In this document: positions 10,926-15,632 of the stretch, in pieces
Numbering within the stretch: position 1 is the first letter of the stretch
How the letters are laid out: every line of letters begins with the position of its first letter
Virus record (IMG/VR): IMGVR_UViG_3300044979_000004
Coordinates: 1 to 64,000 of that record
Source: a virus
Direction: 5' to 3' (one strand)
Length of the DNA stretch: 64,000 nt
The notes under the pieces: generated by a model
Seen by the model: the letters and a program-made list of their open reading frames with translations, nothing else
The model's database searches: none
Told to the model about the DNA's origin: nothing
Position numbers and translations under genes: made by a program

Positions 10926-11002
10926 TGGGATTGGGGCAGGATTCGAACCTGTCGTTTCCACCGCTAATCAGTGGCGTCCTTGTCCACTAGACGACCCGCA
11001 CC
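10926..11002 (-). ncRNA. Degenerate tRNA-Glu-like element
   Basis: Glu-type D arm GTC-TAGTGGACAAG-GAC, CCACT/GGTGG stem with loop GATTAGC, GGTTCGAATCC T arm, poorly paired acceptor stem. Confidence 0.55.
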
Positions 11003-11020: not shown

Positions 11021-11163
11021 GGTGGGGATAGGTGGGAAACGAACCAATTCCTGTGTACTTCAGGATCACCAACTTCTTCTTCGTGGTTTTACATGTACAT
11101 TAGCCGTCGCCTCTGTCGATAATGTAAAACGGTGGAAGCGCTCTTCCCTTGAGCTATATCCCC
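11021..11163 (-). ncRNA. tRNA-like RNA with greatly extended anticodon arm
   Basis: GGGGATA/TATCCCC acceptor plus ACC, canonical D arm GCTC-AAGGGAA-GAGC, long GTTTTACAT/ATGTAAAAC stem in place of the anticodon loop. Confidence 0.65.
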
Positions 11164-11169
11164 ATAATC

Positions 11170-11578
11170 TCATGTGACCAGTTTCACACTTTCGTCAAGC
11201 CGGTCAAAAGCCGTCATATGTTTGTGCCATAACGCAACAACTTCAATTCTCGATTAATGTTGTCAAAACGCCGTTCTTGTCTTTTATTTGAGGCTCATGA
11301 AAGACGGATGAAACGTTGAGCCTTCTCAATCTTTGCCACTATTCTTTTACAAAGTCAGTGGCCAACTCCGTGTCCTAACTTCTTAGGCCATTACCAGATC
11401 GTTAACGTTTGTCTCAACGCCATAGTTGCTGTTTCCAGTAACCATGTTGGCAAGAAGTTCGTCAACAAGTCCAGTCTGCGAGTTTGTGCTTGCAGTTATT
11501 GGTTTACGCAGTTACGGCTGTCGTCTACCGGCACGTCCACAACACCTTGAATAGTACAATCGAAACCTGGACGCACCC
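11170..11578 (-). ncRNA. ssrA: tmRNA coding piece (5' acceptor strand, PK1, tag ORF, downstream pseudoknots); 3' boundary approximate
   Basis: Starts GGGTGCGTCCAGGTTTCGA; PK1-like CGGT..GCCG-TAA; resume context ATAACT-GCA; tag 11493-11383 ending LVMA*; pseudoknots GCCACT/AGTGGC and AGGCTCA/TGAGCCT. Confidence 0.88.
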
Positions 11579-11797
11579 AAAATTCAGCTAAGTTACCCAT
11601 TTGTAGGACTCGAACCTACGGCCATGTTATCTTAGCTTCATTTAGCATTGTCAACCCTGAGATTTGGCCGGGATCGAACCTGCACTTTTCTCCGACTTTG
11701 CTAAATTGATTGTGTAGAACTTATCGTTTCAACCAGCTAGCCAGCTAGCCAGCCAGCTAACGGGGTCTGGTTCTACACAAATTGTTAATACCAAACT

Positions 11798-11926
11798 TGG
11801 TGGATGCGGCGGGAATTGAACCCGCGTCTTATACTACAACATGCGCTTCATACGTGCGTACTTGTTTCCGGGTGCCTTTTGCCGAAGCTAATACAGCGAA
11901 GGTATCTAAAGAGCTACTTCACCCGG
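11798..11926 (-). ncRNA. ssrA: tmRNA acceptor piece (helix-2 strand, T arm, CCA), upstream of the coding piece; 5' boundary approximate
   Basis: Ends GACGCGGGTTCAATTCCCGCCGCATCCACCA; CGCATCC pairs with GGGTGCG giving G3:U70; TAGTATAA and GCACGT pair with TTGTACTA and ACGTGC of the coding piece. Confidence 0.88.
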
Positions 11927-11941
11927 CGTATTTAATACGTT

Positions 11942-12190
11942 TTACAGCTTGCTGATATCGGCCTTTACATCGGCAACAGCAGTCTTAACATCAGACTCAA
12001 CTGTTGCTACGGCGCTCTTAACTACAGGCGTTGCAGCAGCGACTACCACTCCAACCTTGGACTTCAGAGCAGCGATGTCTGACTTTGCTGCGGCGATGTC
12101 CGCATTTGCTGCTGTGCGGAACTTTGAATTGGTGACATACTCAACGCCACCAACGATAAGGGAAAGTACTACTCCGACTTCAAGAATCAT
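11942..12190 (-). CDS. Small membrane-anchored Ala/Val-rich protein
   Basis: AGGAG RBS, N-terminal hydrophobic helix, amphipathic repeats. Confidence 0.65.
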   Translation of the reverse strand: MILEVGVVLSLIVGGVEYVTNSKFRTAANADIAAAKSDIAALKSKVGVVVAAATPVVKSAVATVESDVKTAVADVKADISKL

Positions 12191-13059: not shown

Positions 13060-15632
13060 TATTTGCTCCAGTAGTCTTCAATGTGATATTCACTCAGCAT
13101 TTTCAACTTTTTCACTTTAACTGCCCCGGCTCGATAAATTGCGTCTTCTAGTTCTTTGGCAACATCTTGGGCCAGTTCCGAGGGCACCGATACGACCAGT
13201 TCATCATGCACCATCTTCAACAGACGCGCATGATACTTGGGTAAAATATGAAACAGGAATCCTTTACCCTCAGAGTCAAATAGAGAAGACATTGCCAGCT
13301 TAATCACAGAAGCGTTAGCTCCTTGAATGCAATGATTCATACCTTGCCGTTCAATATTCTGGTGCATGGATGCAAACCTTTTAGCAATTTCGTCGTTACC
13401 TGGAGAACGGTGAGTCAGAGAAAACGTTTCGTCTTTTGTCGGTTTGCGCCCTTTGACTGTCTCAAATGTGATTAGGTTGTTGAGGCACTCCTCACTGGGA
13501 ACTAAAAATTTGTCCGGATCGTCTTCTAGAAGCAACTGCTTTGCCCTTTCCCAAGTAGGTTCCGGAAACAACCTACGTCTTCCGAACACGTCAAATGCTT
13601 TTTTGAAAATCTTAGCATCTGATCCCGACTTGCCTAGATAAGTCCAGATATTCGGGAAAAGCTGCTTATGCTTTGTGATAAGGTCGAGAGTTTCCGCGTA
13701 TGTCTTTCCAATTTGTTTGGAAAGCTTGCGTGGCCCGATCCCGTAACAAAGTCCGAAATTGGCGCTTTTAGTTGCATTACGCAGCGCATTATGTCCTTCG
13801 CATTTGCACTTAAACTTCTGCTGGCTTCCGTCTTCTTTTAATTTGTAGTAAGCGCAGTTCGGCAAAGCGAGCTTCGCCCATTCTTCTTCATAGAGCAGGG
13901 CTGTGCAGACACTATGAATATCCTCCCCACGATTAAATGCGTCGATCCAAATAGAATCGTTAGCCGCTTCAGCCAGCAGTCTTAGCTCGGCACCGCTCAT
14001 GTCAGTGGTTATCAACTTGTGACCGTCATCAGCAATAAAGCAGGACCGTATTTCCTTATCTTGCGGAAGATTCTGACCGTTTGGCTGGCTAGAACTGCTC
14101 CTTCCCGTTTCTGCTTCTTGTTGGTTGAAATGGCTGTGCAGTCGTTGGTCGCCGGGGTTCAGCCATCCTTCCTCCTTGCAGGCGTGCGTGGTCCAGCAGG
14201 TAGCCCAACTCGCTCCATAAGTCCCCACCAGCTTAGACAGTTCATGATATTTTTGAATCAATGTCATGACAGTCAAGTTGCTGTACTTTTCTAGAACTTC
14301 ATCGTCTAGGGAATCTATTTTGGCCAATTGCTTGTACATTTGCCGGAGAACTTTGATCAACTGTGCATTAGAACTGTAGTTGATAAGGGCCTCGCCTTCA
14401 CAATCAGCGGCAAGTTTGTTAATTGCTGTGCGCTTCTTTTTCAAATCGCTACACTTGGTTTTGAGAATTTCTTTTTCAAGTTTTCTCTGCTGCTCCCATT
14501 GACTCATTTGGACTTCTAGTTCGGCCTGTTGCAGGCGGTTGGTTGATGCCTCATCGCTGTCAGGGGCTAGCTTCCTGCTCTCTTTGCGCAGTGTGATGAG
14601 TTTCAACTTTAGGTCCAATTCTTGCGGGCGCGTCGTGTTGTATGACTTCCATTCATCCTCAAGGGCCAGAATAGTTTCATCCTTGATAATTTCATTCTTA
14701 GAGCCTACTAGGGGCAGAAAATACACATCCAAAGCCGAAACCACATCAGCCAACTCTTTCTTGTTCTTTTCCACACGAGCATTCCACTTTTCTACGTCAA
14801 GTCGTTCTCCGTGAATGTGCATGGATATAAAGGCGTTGATGGCTCCGTTTTCGATTTTGCAAATCTCTTCAAGATTGTCTCCTAGCACTTGCTGGTCAAG
14901 TTTTGCCAACAAGTCGGCAGCTTTATTCTGGCCTTTGGCTCGTAGGGATTTTACTGTGTTTCCTTTGATGATAAGTTCCTGAGCCTTTTTGATTGCTAAA
15001 GGTAAACGGGTGTCAAGTGCCGCGTATTCGATCTGAGCCTGCGACAGCAGTTGATCTAGTGTAAACGAAGTTTGAAGTTCCTTGTCAACCTGCATTCCGA
15101 AGTAGCGCCCGAACATTTCTTCAAGACCGTAAAACGCAAAATCCTTGAGGCTGTGAATTCCTGCGTAAATGCAGCGTTCGACTACACTTGTGTCGAACAA
15201 ATTCCATGGTTGTACACCAAAATTCCAATAGAATGTCGAGAACTCAAATCCTAGATTCACACCGACAAGTTCAAGTTTACCAGTCACATACGGAGTGATT
15301 GCTTGAATAAACTCTTGCAACTTTGGGGCCTTGTAGAGATTTTTACCATATTCTCCCTGGCAGTCGAATAGAAGATTAGAATCGCCATCGCACAATTCTA
15401 GAAGGTCTACGACATACTGTTTCTCAAGAACTCCGAACTGAATGGTCCGGCAGCGTCTCCAGTAAAAGTCTTTCTTTACATCTGTTTCCACATCAAGCCC
15501 CGTTGCTGTGTCCGACTTGCTAGCCTGTTCTTCCAAAAACTTTAGCAACAAGTCAATGCCTTGCGTATCGTTTACGTAAGTGACATTCAGCGGAGGGTTC
15601 AGCACTAGAGGCTTCAGTTCAACATTATCCAT
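13059..15632 (-). CDS. polA: Family A DNA polymerase with 3'-5' exonuclease
   Basis: Exo GLDVET and YAALD; TGRSSSSQPNGQNLP; motif A DMSGAELR; motif B RNATKSANFGLCYG; motif C MVHDELV. Confidence 0.95.
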   Translation of the reverse strand: MDNVELKPLVLNPPLNVTYVNDTQGIDLLLKFLEEQASKSDTATGLDVETDVKKDFYWRRCRTIQFGVLEKQYVVDLLELCDGDSNLLFDCQGEYGKNLYKAPKLQEFIQAITPYVTGKLELVGVNLGFEFSTFYWNFGVQPWNLFDTSVVERCIYAGIHSLKDFAFYGLEEMFGRYFGMQVDKELQTSFTLDQLLSQAQIEYAALDTRLPLAIKKAQELIIKGNTVKSLRAKGQNKAADLLAKLDQQVLGDNLEEICKIENGAINAFISMHIHGERLDVEKWNARVEKNKKELADVVSALDVYFLPLVGSKNEIIKDETILALEDEWKSYNTTRPQELDLKLKLITLRKESRKLAPDSDEASTNRLQQAELEVQMSQWEQQRKLEKEILKTKCSDLKKKRTAINKLAADCEGEALINYSSNAQLIKVLRQMYKQLAKIDSLDDEVLEKYSNLTVMTLIQKYHELSKLVGTYGASWATCWTTHACKEEGWLNPGDQRLHSHFNQQEAETGRSSSSQPNGQNLPQDKEIRSCFIADDGHKLITTDMSGAELRLLAEAANDSIWIDAFNRGEDIHSVCTALLYEEEWAKLALPNCAYYKLKEDGSQQKFKCKCEGHNALRNATKSANFGLCYGIGPRKLSKQIGKTYAETLDLITKHKQLFPNIWTYLGKSGSDAKIFKKAFDVFGRRRLFPEPTWERAKQLLLEDDPDKFLVPSEECLNNLITFETVKGRKPTKDETFSLTHRSPGNDEIAKRFASMHQNIERQGMNHCIQGANASVIKLAMSSLFDSEGKGFLFHILPKYHARLLKMVHDELVVSVPSELAQDVAKELEDAIYRAGAVKVKKLKMLSEYHIEDYWSK

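What the first reader, a model, noticed from the sequence alone, without database searches (positions are those of the whole stretch)
11170..11926. Phage-encoded circularly permuted (two-piece) tmRNA
Seen on the minus strand: the tmRNA 3' module (GAC-GCGGG-TTCAATT-CCCGC-CGCATCC-ACCA, ending 11798) lies upstream of the 5' module (GGGTGCG-TCCAGGTTTCGA, starting 11578). The pieces are complementary: acceptor stem with the Ala identity pair G3:U70, helix 2 TTGTACTA/TAGTATAA and ACGTGC/GCACGT. The coding piece keeps PK1, the ATAACT-GCA resume signal, a tag ORF and at least two more pseudoknots. Known: permuted two-piece tmRNAs occur in Alphaproteobacteria, some cyanobacteria, some Betaproteobacteria and certain mitochondria, typically with short intervening segments and fewer pseudoknots. 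Inference: an independent phage permutation with the break near the last pseudoknot and a 219-nt spacer, giving the phage its own ribosome-rescue RNA that uses host SmpB and AlaRS.
Basis: partly seen in the sequence, partly recalled or inferred. Interest (0 to 1): 0.92.

Follow-up and report, generated by a model that had tools for sequence, protein, structure and literature searches.

The report
Two-piece tmRNA gene in soil phage
This uncultured soil phage really does carry a back-to-front (two-piece) gene for tmRNA, the RNA that frees stalled ribosomes, but such phage genes are already known, and this one is a long-spacer member of a family shared by its relatives, including a phage that can be grown in the laboratory.

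Summary
On the minus strand the tRNA-like 3' module ends at 11798 and lies upstream of the 5' module, which starts at 11578; the spacer is 219 nt. Rfam's permuted-tmRNA model matches end to end (81.8 bits, cut-off 47).

It is not a one-off. The window is a Tunturi_3-like podophage (portal 65%, DNA polymerase 44.5% identical to Tunturiibacter phage Tunturi_3, Acidobacteriota host). Of 31 related viral contigs, 20 carry the gene, including 8 of 8 near-complete ones; 19 of those 20 have it just downstream of polA. Tunturi_3 carries it too, unannotated.

Across 17 distinct copies the two pieces covary: 97% of cells paired, 16 of 22 pairs changed on both sides, G3:U70 in all 17. Tags are 14-37 residues (36 here, ending LVMA), against 8-10 in sampled Acidobacteriota, which have one-piece tmRNA.

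The window's spacer is the longest of the 17. A ~134-nt insert with T-arm-like motifs, missing from the nearest relative, accounts for the excess.

Phage two-piece tmRNAs are already in print, and this scan has noted many on other DNA. "Independent permutation" is unproven: the rearrangement predates the clade, the layout matches the betaproteobacterial type, and no subtype model reaches threshold.

Verdict: real, new member of a known kind, moderate interest.

The parts
11927..11939 (.). Dyad CGTAT-N3-ATACG between the upstream ORF's stop (11942) and the tmRNA unit. It is one of 14 copies in the window and may be a phage regulatory site; its function is unknown.
   Evidence: 14 matches against 0.02 expected in shuffles. 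Also noted by earlier scan note e1-6123257.
11864..11926 (-). Leader upstream of the acceptor piece, with a predicted hairpin closed by CCGGGTG/CACCCGG. Whether it is part of the mature RNA is unknown.
   Evidence: Read. Not conserved in sequence in relatives.
11798..11863 (-). Acceptor piece (tRNA-like 3' module). It holds the conserved AAGTACGCACG, the helix-2 3' strands (GCACG 11857-11853; TAGTATAA 11836-11829), the T stem-loop (11825-11809), the acceptor 3' strand CGCATCC (11808-11802) and an encoded ACCA (11801-11798).
11579..11797 (-). Intervening sequence, 219 nt, presumably removed during maturation. It contains a long hairpin (stems about 11780-11770 and 11720-11710) shared with the nearest relative, with a GCTGGCTA-type repeat at its tip.
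   Evidence: fold -67 kcal/mol, z -3.0; alignment with L053; lengths of 10-219 nt in 17 copies.
11579..11712 (-). Window-specific insert of about 134 nt inside the intervening sequence. It has two T-arm-like motifs (GGTTCGATCC, GGTTCGAGTCC), 13-nt imperfect inverted ends and AATTT on both flanks. It is a tRNA-derived or tRNA-like element of unknown role.
   Evidence: absent in L053; tRNA model 15.8 bits, E 5.3, not significant; no other copy in the genome or loci; ARAGORN finds no tRNA; likeness to tRNAs is limited to the T arm.
11335..11578 (-). Coding piece, minimal extent. It holds the acceptor 5' strand GGGTGCG (11578-11572), the D-loop analogue TCCAGGTTTCGA (11571-11560), the helix-2 5' strands (TTGTACTA 11559-11552; CGTGC 11535-11531), predicted PK1 (about 11530-11505), the tag frame, helix 5 and a PK2-like pseudoknot. 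The true 3' end is unknown.
11383..11493 (-). Tag reading frame: resume codon GCA at 11493-11491, 36 codons (ASTNSQTGLVDELLANMVTGNSNYGVETNVNDLVMA), stop TAA at 11385-11383 inside helix 5 (CCTAA/TTAGG, 11387-11374).
   Evidence: The nearest relative L053 keeps a 36-codon frame ending NDLVMA.
11335..11371 (-). PK2-like H-type pseudoknot: hairpin GCCACTG/TAGTGGC with loop ACTTTGTAAAAGAA, whose 5' part can pair with the upstream ACGGAGT.
   Evidence: loop motif in 12 of 16 copies; stems covary. The same layout occurs in betaproteobacterial two-piece tmRNAs.
11270..11322 (-). Possible further pseudoknot (GGCTCA/TGAGCC with GTCTTT/AAAGAC), predicted for this window only.
   Evidence: My reading. It has no counterpart in L053, where a tRNA gene follows PK2 directly.

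Best explanation
Window 11863-11335 (minus strand) is a functional-looking, circularly permuted tmRNA (ssrA) gene of a Tunturi_3-like soil podophage. It belongs to a gene family inherited throughout that phage clade. Proposed mechanism: the gene is transcribed with neighbouring tRNA-like genes, and host tRNA-processing enzymes remove the 219-nt intervening sequence. RNase P would cut at G11578; endo- and exonucleases would trim back to the encoded CCA at 11798. The two resulting RNAs stay together through the 7-bp acceptor stem and helix 2. Host AlaRS charges the molecule through G3:U70. With host SmpB and EF-Tu it enters stalled ribosomes, and translation resumes at GCA 11493, adding a 36-residue tag ending LVMA. 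For the phage, the likely benefit is to keep ribosomes free during infection and to mark truncated proteins with its own, much longer tag. Shown: gene order, covarying pairings, an intact tag frame in 16 of the 17 distinct copies (the 17th runs off its contig end inside the tag), clade-wide conservation and synteny, and no SmpB gene found in the record. Inferred: processing, charging, tagging and the benefit to the phage. The extra-long spacer comes from a secondary ~134-nt insertion of tRNA-like sequence into a segment that is discarded anyway.
For: RF04321 matches full length at 81.8 bits against a cut-off of 47. All 17 distinct copies have a 7/7 acceptor stem with G3:U70 and a 5/5 T stem. 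On 22 pairs, 97.1% of cells are paired against 74.3% in shuffles, and 16 pairs changed on both sides, reached by 0 of 500 shuffles. Tag frames of 14-37 codons, ending in a hydrophobic residue plus Ala, are open in the 16 of 17 distinct copies whose sequence reaches a tag end; L037 runs off its contig end inside the tag. ARAGORN independently gave the same tag in 8 of the 9 distinct copies it detected. The stop codon sits in helix 5 and a PK2-like pseudoknot covaries. The gene is present in 20 of 31 related contigs, in 8 of 8 that are at least 90% complete, and in cultured Tunturi_3. By my arithmetic, it lies within about 4 kb downstream of polA on the same strand in 19 of 20. No SmpB or RF-1 gene was found in the record. 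The sampled hosts' phylum uses one-piece tmRNA with 8-10-residue tags. The insert is absent from the nearest relative.
Against: There is no expression or end-mapping evidence for this locus. Only Logan contigs were available. One soil metatranscriptome contig matches 11379-11528 at about 88% (a relative, and possibly DNA in the library), and none spans the gene. The tag ends in MA rather than the usual AA, so its fate is unknown. The large insert could impair processing in this particular phage. No sigma-70-like promoter or intrinsic terminator was found on the minus strand. The host of this phage is inferred from 44.5% (polA) and 65% (portal) identity to Tunturi_3, not shown. PK1 is predicted only.
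Confidence: 0.85

Rival explanations
1. Origin rival A: the clade's ancestor permuted a host-like one-piece tmRNA independently of the alpha, beta and cyanobacterial lineages.
For: The alpha, beta and cyano models do not reach their cut-offs on the window or on 11 of 12 relatives tested. In a 140-sequence tree the phage copies form their own clade (support 0.69, with one bacterial intruder), apart from three true beta two-piece genes (support 0.96). The 5' domain (positions 8-45) has an Acidobacteriota one-piece tmRNA as top or tied-top neighbour in 11 of 17 copies, although that phylum makes up 25% of the panel. A 23-nt PK1 word shared by several phage copies has 0 exact matches in the genome-contig collection, which holds one genome for each of 185,579 species.
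Against: The break point (after PK2, with PK3 and PK4 missing) and the PK2 loop motif are the same as in true beta two-piece genes such as L197. The tree rests on 171 columns and has low support. The panel was chosen by a 3' motif and lacks alpha and cyano genes. Likeness to the host could be adaptation to host SmpB rather than ancestry.
Confidence: 0.4
2. Origin rival B: the family descends from a bacterial two-piece tmRNA of the betaproteobacterial type, or shares a mobile ancestor with it, and diverged in phages.
For: RF01850 is the best subtype model for 10 of 12 relatives, and 9 of those 10 alignments span the whole model (1-331), including the post-tag hairpin. The piece order, the break after PK2 and the loop ..CUUGGCAACAGAA.. 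are seen in L197.
Against: Scores of 35-56 bits are far below the cut-off of 84, while true beta genes score 169-296. Standard tmRNA 5' halves in Burkholderiales reach similar sub-threshold scores. Tags differ in length and sequence (10 against 14-37 residues). The tree shows no affinity.
Confidence: 0.3
3. In this particular phage the gene is decaying: the 134-nt insert in the spacer has broken maturation, and only relatives have a working copy.
For: The spacer is the longest of 17, 219 nt against 10-118 nt in the others. The insert is unique to the window. Default ARAGORN fails on it.
Against: Every functional element outside the spacer is intact, including a canonical T loop, the D-loop GG, G3:U70, the CCA and a 36-codon open tag frame of the same length as in L053. 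The spacer is discarded anyway. Published permuted genes tolerate a tRNA gene or a repeat element there (PMC11915505).
Confidence: 0.1
4. It acts as a decoy or modulator that competes with host tmRNA for SmpB, rather than as a rescue and tagging RNA.
For: A CDS-less phage tmRNA-like RNA from phage DS6A is reported to inhibit the endogenous tmRNA (PMC11915505, passage read). The phage has no SmpB gene of its own.
Against: A long tag frame with a degron-like C-terminus, helix 5 and PK1/PK2 is kept across 16 diverged copies. A mere decoy would not need these.
Confidence: 0.08
5. Artefact: a tRNA or tmRNA 3' fragment that happens to lie upstream of the 5' half of a one-piece tmRNA, which is how RF04321 gives false hits.
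For: Exactly this artefact occurs in Acidobacteriota. In a sample of 151 genomes, 5 had RF04321 hits over the cut-off; those 5 and one just under it (6 loci inspected) were each a tRNA gene just upstream of a standard tmRNA.
Against: In the window, RF00023 finds no one-piece gene, only the 3' piece at 30.7 bits. The upstream piece is not a tRNA; it carries the helix-2 strands complementary to the downstream piece. Acceptor and helix-2 pairs between the pieces covary in 17 copies.
Confidence: 0.02

Closest known systems
Circularly permuted (two-piece) tmRNA genes, Rfam RF04321 tmRNA_permuted (PMC11915505)
   Same: Gene order (acceptor piece, intervening sequence, coding piece), 7-bp acceptor stem with G3:U70, T arm, encoded CCA, helix 2 holding the pieces together, PK1, resume codon and tag frame. 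The full-length model match is at 81.8 bits.
   Different: Spacer of 219 nt with a tRNA-like insert. Tag of 36 residues ending LVMA. Carried by a soil phage related to an Acidobacteriota phage, and the sampled members of that host phylum have one-piece tmRNA.
Betaproteobacterial two-piece tmRNA, Rfam RF01850 (true examples L195-L197)
   Same: Break after PK2 with PK3 and PK4 absent. A PK2 of the same topology, with a loop motif close to ..CUUGGCAACAGAA... It is the best-scoring subtype model for 10 of 12 relatives.
   Different: The window scores only 9.6 bits (local) and relatives 35-56 bits against a cut-off of 84. Beta tags have 10 residues (ANDE.FA.AA type). Beta spacers are about 30-50 nt in the three examples. 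The tree shows no affinity.
Phage-encoded two-piece tmRNAs of marine and freshwater phages (Melnitz, pelagimyophages; Buchholz et al. 2022, PMC9004378)
   Same: A phage carries its own permuted ssrA. [quoted passage not shown]
   Different: Those phages are alphaproteobacterial-type genes, mostly aquatic (50 of 53), and some have a glutamine riboswitch. This family is from soil, is not alpha-type by Rfam (except L036), has long tags and is syntenic with polA.
Permuted tmRNA genes with cargo in the intervening sequence (tRNA-Ala in one; a repetitive element in the 1152-bp gene; PMC11915505)
   Same: The discarded spacer tolerates inserted sequence, and one published case holds a tRNA gene.
   Different: Here the insert is not a recognisable tRNA (15.8 bits). 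It has only T-arm-like motifs and inverted ends.
One-piece tmRNA of Acidobacteriota (RF00023 hits at 143-188 bits)
   Same: The 5' D-loop and helix-2 region (..GTCACGG.TTCGACGG.. in several family members) and the conserved 3' motif ..TA.GCA.GT.. before the T arm.
   Different: One-piece order, four pseudoknots in the Rfam model alignment, and tags of 8-10 residues ending YAA or LAA.

Membership tests
Permuted tmRNA (Rfam RF04321) | Covariance-model score at or above the curated cut-off, full-length match | tested here: met
   81.8 bits against 47, model positions 1-213
Permuted tmRNA (Rfam RF04321) | tRNA-like 3' module encoded upstream of the 5' module on the same strand, with no one-piece alternative | tested here: met
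   CCA end at 11798, G1 at 11578. RF00023 matches only the 3' piece at 30.7 bits.
Permuted tmRNA (Rfam RF04321) | Acceptor stem formed between the two pieces, with the alanine identity pair G3:U70 | tested here: met
   7/7 pairs. G:U at the third pair in 17 of 17 copies, and pairs 4-6 covary.
Permuted tmRNA (Rfam RF04321) | T arm and encoded CCA | tested here: met
   GCGGG-TTCAATT-CCCGC, then ACCA. The T stem is 5/5 in all 17 copies.
Permuted tmRNA (Rfam RF04321) | Helix 2 pairing that holds the pieces together | tested here: met
   Duplex of -23.8 kcal/mol in the window. Helix-2 pairs are 88-99% paired, with changes on both sides in 8 of 10 pairs.
Permuted tmRNA (Rfam RF04321) | Resume codon and tag frame ending in a degron-like C-terminus, with the stop codon in helix 5 | tested here: met
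   GCA at 11493, 36 codons..NDLVMA, TAA in CCTAA/TTAGG. Deviations: the tag ends MA rather than AA and is 3-4 times the host length.
Permuted tmRNA (Rfam RF04321) | Pseudoknot PK1 upstream of the resume codon | tested here: inconclusive
   The PK1 hairpin aligns to the model without flagged non-standard pairs. The second stem is my reading only. The family has two PK1 sequence types that MAFFT did not align consistently.
Permuted tmRNA (Rfam RF04321) | Maturation into two RNAs, alanylation, SmpB-dependent trans-translation | not testable with these tools
   Only Logan contigs were available, so no ends could be read.
Betaproteobacterial two-piece tmRNA (Rfam RF01850) | Model score at or above the cut-off of 84 bits | tested here: not met
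   Window 9.6 bits, local. Relatives 35-56 bits. True members 169-296 bits.
Betaproteobacterial two-piece tmRNA (Rfam RF01850) | Coding piece ends after a PK2 with a conserved loop; PK3 and PK4 absent | tested here: met
Alphaproteobacterial two-piece tmRNA (Rfam RF01849) | Model score at or above the cut-off of 50 bits | tested here: not met
   No listed hit on the window at E up to 10; one lower overlapping clan hit was hidden. Among relatives, L036 (60 bits, full length, not syntenic) and L049 (57.9 bits, tRNA domain only) reach the cut-off.
Cyanobacterial two-piece tmRNA (Rfam RF01851) | Model score at or above its cut-off | tested here: not met
   Never the listed best clan member on the window or on 12 relatives. 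Lower overlapping clan hits are hidden by the tool, so its exact scores were not seen.
Standard one-piece tmRNA (Rfam RF00023) | 5' and 3' tRNA-like halves flank the tag and four pseudoknots in that order | tested here: not met
   Only a 5'-truncated match to the 3' piece, 30.7 bits against 47.

The most novel reading that the evidence does not exclude
Tunturi_3-like soil phages, whose known host phylum uses one-piece tmRNA with 8-10-residue tags, have vertically kept a two-piece tmRNA lineage of their own. On this reading it arose by a permutation event separate from the three bacterial ones. It writes a phage-specific 14-37-residue tag onto stalled proteins, giving them a different fate from host-tagged ones. 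Its discarded spacer serves as a landing pad for tRNA-like mobile sequence, as in this window.
Probability: 0.2. Interest if true: 0.6.

Novelty: new member of a known kind. Interest (0 to 1): 0.35.

Why it matters
This is an annotation correction plus a usable lead. A ribosome-rescue RNA gene is present and unannotated in a cultured Acidobacteriota phage (Tunturi_3, PP885686, about 88172-88396) and in at least 20 related soil viral contigs. Default ARAGORN misses 8 of the 17 distinct copies. Tunturi 3 and its host can be grown, so three open questions become testable in a pair where phage and host tmRNA differ in form (two-piece against one-piece) and tag length. The questions are why phages carry tmRNA, whether long phage tags change the fate of tagged proteins, and how two-piece tmRNA matures. 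It also extends phage two-piece tmRNAs from mainly aquatic phages to soil. Finally, RF04321 gives false positives where a tRNA gene precedes a standard tmRNA gene.

Tried and rejected
Nucleotide search of 11100-12000 against 50,697 phage records found nothing.

Exact-word scans of IMG/VR with two words from the gene found only one relative. The polA alignment was the productive route.

A scan of genome contigs with polA gave one distant alphaproteobacterial MAG, of no use for the host question.

A 23-nt PK1 word had 0 matches in genome contigs. By my script, 108 of those are one-piece, 9 are unclassified, 2 are ambiguous and 1 looked permuted. That last one (L079) was a one-piece gene cut by the locus edge.

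BLAST of the coding pieces against 136 bacterial loci gave only two short, uninformative hits (24-25 nt, for L052 and L054). Acceptor pieces matched many phyla through the T arm.

RF04321 hits in Acidobacteriota looked at first like a host two-piece lineage. All 6 inspected were a tRNA gene followed by a standard tmRNA.

Eight Burkholderiales genomes had sub-threshold RF01850 hits (41-50 bits). In the six that I printed, the hit covers a sequence that looks to me like the 5' half of a standard one-piece tmRNA. L204 and L200 were not printed.

Sequencing runs: 10 were listed and none holds half of the sampled words. I laid 4. No contig spans the gene. Cover at 11800-11828 is by 31-mers of the generic T arm. 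X2 gave nothing. Parts without cover prove nothing.

The insert as a tRNA: rejected as a recognisable tRNA. The tRNA model gives 15.8 bits at E 5.3, ARAGORN finds none even at -ps80, and the best local alignment to 207 phage tRNAs scores 41 against a shuffle maximum of 38, through the T arm only. The insert as a repeated element: no second copy in the genome or in any locus.

No sigma-70-like promoter or terminator was found on the minus strand.

The papers by Sharkady and Williams 2004 and Keiler et al. 2000 were not held. What I say about the alpha and cyano architectures beyond the Rfam outputs is recalled.

Supplements are closed. Table S1 of PMC9004378 (list of phage two-piece tmRNAs) and Supplementary Table S2 and the sequence files of PMC11915505 could show whether any member of this family is already catalogued. 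I could not see them.

That this family is not described in print rests on searches, and on 0 mentions of 'tmRNA' in the Tunturi paper.
Full report
WHAT IS THERE. Read on the minus strand, the sequence has, in this order:
- a conserved AAGTACGCACG;
- the 3' strands of helix 2;
- a T stem-loop GCGGG-TTCAATT-CCCGC;
- the acceptor 3' strand CGCATCC and an encoded ACCA ending at 11798;
- 219 nt of spacer;
- GGGTGCG (starting at 11578), TCCAGGTTTCGA, the 5' strands of helix 2 and a PK1-like region;
- the context ..AATAACT-GCA, and a 36-codon frame ending GTA ATG GCC TAA at 11385-11383.

Rfam release 15 holds a general model for permuted tmRNA (RF04321). It matches 11857-11458 over its whole length at 81.8 bits (cut-off 47, E 4e-14) and treats the spacer as one insertion. 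The one-piece model RF00023 matches only the 3' piece (30.7 bits, truncated). The beta model gives 9.6 bits locally, and no alpha or cyano hit is listed. Default ARAGORN does not report the gene. With a relaxed threshold it reports a permuted tmRNA at about 11890-11292 with a wrong tag start.

WHOSE GENE IT IS. The window is the first 64 kb of an 89,199-bp IMG/VR virus record estimated to be 93% complete. Its DNA polymerase is 44.5% identical, and its portal 65% identical, to those of Tunturiibacter phage Tunturi_3. Tunturi_3 is a 97.6-kb podovirus isolated on an Acidobacteriota host, and for the portal it is the only hit among 50,697 phage records (PMC11924767, passages read). The tmRNA lies in the minus-strand replication block, which holds an AAA ATPase, a phosphoesterase, a DUF6915 protein and polA, among tRNA genes. 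Tunturi_3 has an RF04321 match (63.3 bits) at 88172-88396. That is an unannotated gap downstream of its polA, and its paper never mentions tmRNA.

A FAMILY, NOT A SINGLE EVENT. A polA alignment found 31 related IMG/VR loci.
- Of these records, 21 have an RF04321 match at E up to 0.01 and 20 are over the cut-off.
- All 8 records that are at least 90% complete have the gene.
- By my arithmetic on the coordinates, 19 of the 20 lie within about 4 kb downstream of polA on the same strand.
- The exception is L036, 24 kb away. It is also one of only two copies that reach the alpha model's cut-off, and the only one that matches it full length (60 bits).
- Most of the 10 records with no match at all (an 11th, G025, has only a 26-bit partial match) are fragments that end near polA, or are the most distant relatives (36-39% identity).

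Together with the window and Tunturi_3 there are 17 distinct sequences. All 17 have a 7/7 acceptor stem with G3:U70 and a 5/5 T stem. Spacers measure 10, 23, 24, 25, 25, 27, 57, 74, 77, 81, 85, 88, 91, 104, 109, 118 and 219 nt.

I named a 22-pair structure (acceptor stem, T stem and two parts of helix 2) on a MAFFT alignment. Its pairs are 97.1% standard, against 74.3% in 500 shuffles and 32-45% when the partner is slid. Sixteen pairs changed on both sides, and no shuffle reached any observed measure. This excludes the artefact found below.

TAG AND DOWNSTREAM STRUCTURE. Open frames from an Ala, Gly or Val resume codon run 14-37 codons and end in ..LVMA..LLAA..MLAA..LVAA and the like in 16 copies. 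The 17th is cut by a contig end. ARAGORN, where it detects the gene (13 of 22 sequences, 9 of 17 distinct), gives the same tag in 8 of 9. The window and its nearest relative L053 both have 36 codons and share 17 of 36 residues, by my count.

The stop codon sits in a small hairpin (helix 5) in all 16 copies whose sequence reaches the stop. A hairpin with a conserved loop (..CCUAGCAACAGAA.., in the window ACUUUGUAAAAGAA) follows in 12 of 16. Its stem differs from copy to copy, and the 5' part of the loop can pair with the strand just upstream, which makes an H-type pseudoknot. A further pseudoknot that I can draw at about 11322-11270 has no counterpart in L053, where a tRNA gene follows directly. 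So 'at least two more pseudoknots' is half supported.

THE LONG SPACER. The first 90 nt or so form a long hairpin that L053 shares. The remaining ~134 nt (11712-11579) are absent from L053.
- The insert has two T-arm-like motifs, 13-nt imperfect inverted ends and AATTT on both flanks (my reading).
- It folds well: the whole spacer gives -67 kcal/mol, z -3.0.
- It is not a recognisable tRNA (15.8 bits, E 5.3; no ARAGORN call).
- It resembles tRNAs only in the T arm.
- It has no second copy in the genome or in any locus.

The database paper reports an intact tRNA-Ala gene in one intervening sequence as unique, and a repetitive element in another. Earlier notes of this scan describe protein genes and homing nucleases in phage tmRNA spacers on other DNA (not checked here). 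The window's insert fits that pattern of a tolerant, discarded segment. What the insert is remains open.

HOSTS. Five of five Terriglobia and Bryobacterales genomes have a one-piece tmRNA (161-185 bits). In a sample of 151 Acidobacteriota genomes, 5 gave RF04321 hits over the cut-off. Those 5, and one just below it, were each a tRNA gene immediately upstream of a standard tmRNA (143-188 bits). This is a false-positive mode of the model. Host-phylum tags have 8-10 residues (ANQQMAYAA, ANNTQFAYAA, ANNFALAA and similar). The phage record has no SmpB and no RF-1-domain gene.

ORIGIN. Three things point to the beta type. First, RF01850 is the best subtype model for 10 of 12 relatives, and 9 of those 10 alignments are full length. 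Second, three true beta genes (169-296 bits) show the same break after PK2. Third, one of them (L197) has nearly the same PK2 loop.

Four things point away from it.
- Scores are 35-56 bits against a cut-off of 84, a range that ordinary one-piece 5' halves also reach.
- Beta tags have 10 residues.
- In a FastTree tree of 140 sequences and 171 columns, the phage copies form their own clade (support 0.69, with one bacterial sequence inside), apart from the beta clade (support 0.96).
- The nearest neighbour of the 5' domain is an Acidobacteriota one-piece tmRNA in 11 of 17 copies, ties included, with that phylum at 25% of a biased panel.

I cannot decide between an independent permutation and descent from a two-piece ancestor. 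Either way the event is old relative to this phage.

EXPRESSION. No run holds the locus. One soil metatranscriptome contig matches 11379-11528 with 17 differences and 2 gaps. One permafrost metatranscriptome contig matches 11182-11318 with 9 differences. Both come from relatives and may be DNA carried in the libraries. This is at most a weak hint.

WHAT IS KNOWN. Buchholz et al. 2022 (PMC9004378, passages read) found tmRNA in 402 of 18,146 phage genomes, giving 133 unique forms. ARAGORN called 53 of these two-piece, and 50 of those 53 came from marine or aquatic samples. The same paper describes the two-piece ssrA of Melnitz. The 2025 database paper (PMC11915505, passages read) lists 79 phage tmRNAs and 11,946 permuted genes and is the source of RF04321. 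A word search of this scan's earlier notes also returned thousands of findings that hold these words; six of the eight shown describe permuted tmRNA genes in other phages.

What is new here:
- the clade (soil, Tunturi_3-like, unannotated in the cultured isolate);
- the long tags;
- the failure to reach any subtype cut-off;
- the outlier spacer.

VERDICT. This is a new member of a known kind. Interest is 0.35, most of it from having a cultured phage-host pair in which the questions can be tested.

Noticed in passing
window 11021-11163 (-): A 143-nt tRNA-like element lies downstream of the tmRNA coding piece. It has a perfect acceptor stem GGGGATA/TATCCCC and a canonical D arm, then a long hairpin where the anticodon arm should be. 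Neither ARAGORN nor the Rfam tRNA model calls it. An earlier scan note (e1-6123258) also records it.
   Followed up: partly
window 10927-11001 (-): A weak tRNA-like gene (Rfam tRNA 18.8 bits, below the cut-off of 29). ARAGORN at -ps90 reads it as tRNA-Stop with anticodon UUA. The acceptor stem is poor and the anticodon loop is GAUUAGC. I saw similar GGGTCGTCTA.. elements upstream of the tmRNA in L054 and L038.
   Followed up: partly
window 1994-55875; one copy at 11927-11939: The dyad CGTAT-N3-ATACG occurs 14 times against 0.02 expected, often just upstream of gene starts. One copy sits directly upstream of the tmRNA unit. Its function is unknown.
   Followed up: partly
L053, L055, L041, L049, L036 against the other 12 copies: The five copies whose T loop is not of the TTCRA type (TAGCATAA, TAGCATAT, GGCGGCA, GGCAGAA, TGCGAAT) are exactly the five whose D-loop analogue has lost its GG. 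The 12 copies with a canonical T loop all keep GG. This 17-of-17 association suggests that a tertiary contact was lost or replaced together, several times over.
   Followed up: partly
PP885686.1 88172-88396 (L003 1501-1725, -): Cultured Tunturiibacter phage Tunturi_3 carries an unannotated permuted tmRNA (63.3 bits) with a 29-residue tag ending MLAA. It also encodes an RF-1-domain (ArfB-like) protein, gp125, which the window's genome lacks.
   Followed up: partly
L184-L189 (Acidobacteriota genomes): RF04321 scores over its cut-off (49.6-58 bits) where a tRNA gene lies just upstream of a standard one-piece tmRNA. This is a false-positive mode of the model.
   Followed up: yes
window about 11170-11214 (-); L004 about 14650-14695: A conserved stretch..GACGGCTTT.GACCGGCTTGACGAA.AGTGTGAAACTGGTCA.., is shared by the window and its nearest relative, upstream of the next tRNA-like gene. 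A permafrost metatranscriptome contig covers 11182-11318. It may be a promoter or a processing signal.
   Followed up: no
L045 1231-1334: A weak YrlA (Y RNA-like) match (31.9 bits, cut-off 69) lies just upstream of the tmRNA of a relative.
   Followed up: no
window 11729-11760 (-): A short GCTGGCTA-type repeat forms the tip of the spacer hairpin. L053 has a different palindromic tip at the same place.
   Followed up: no
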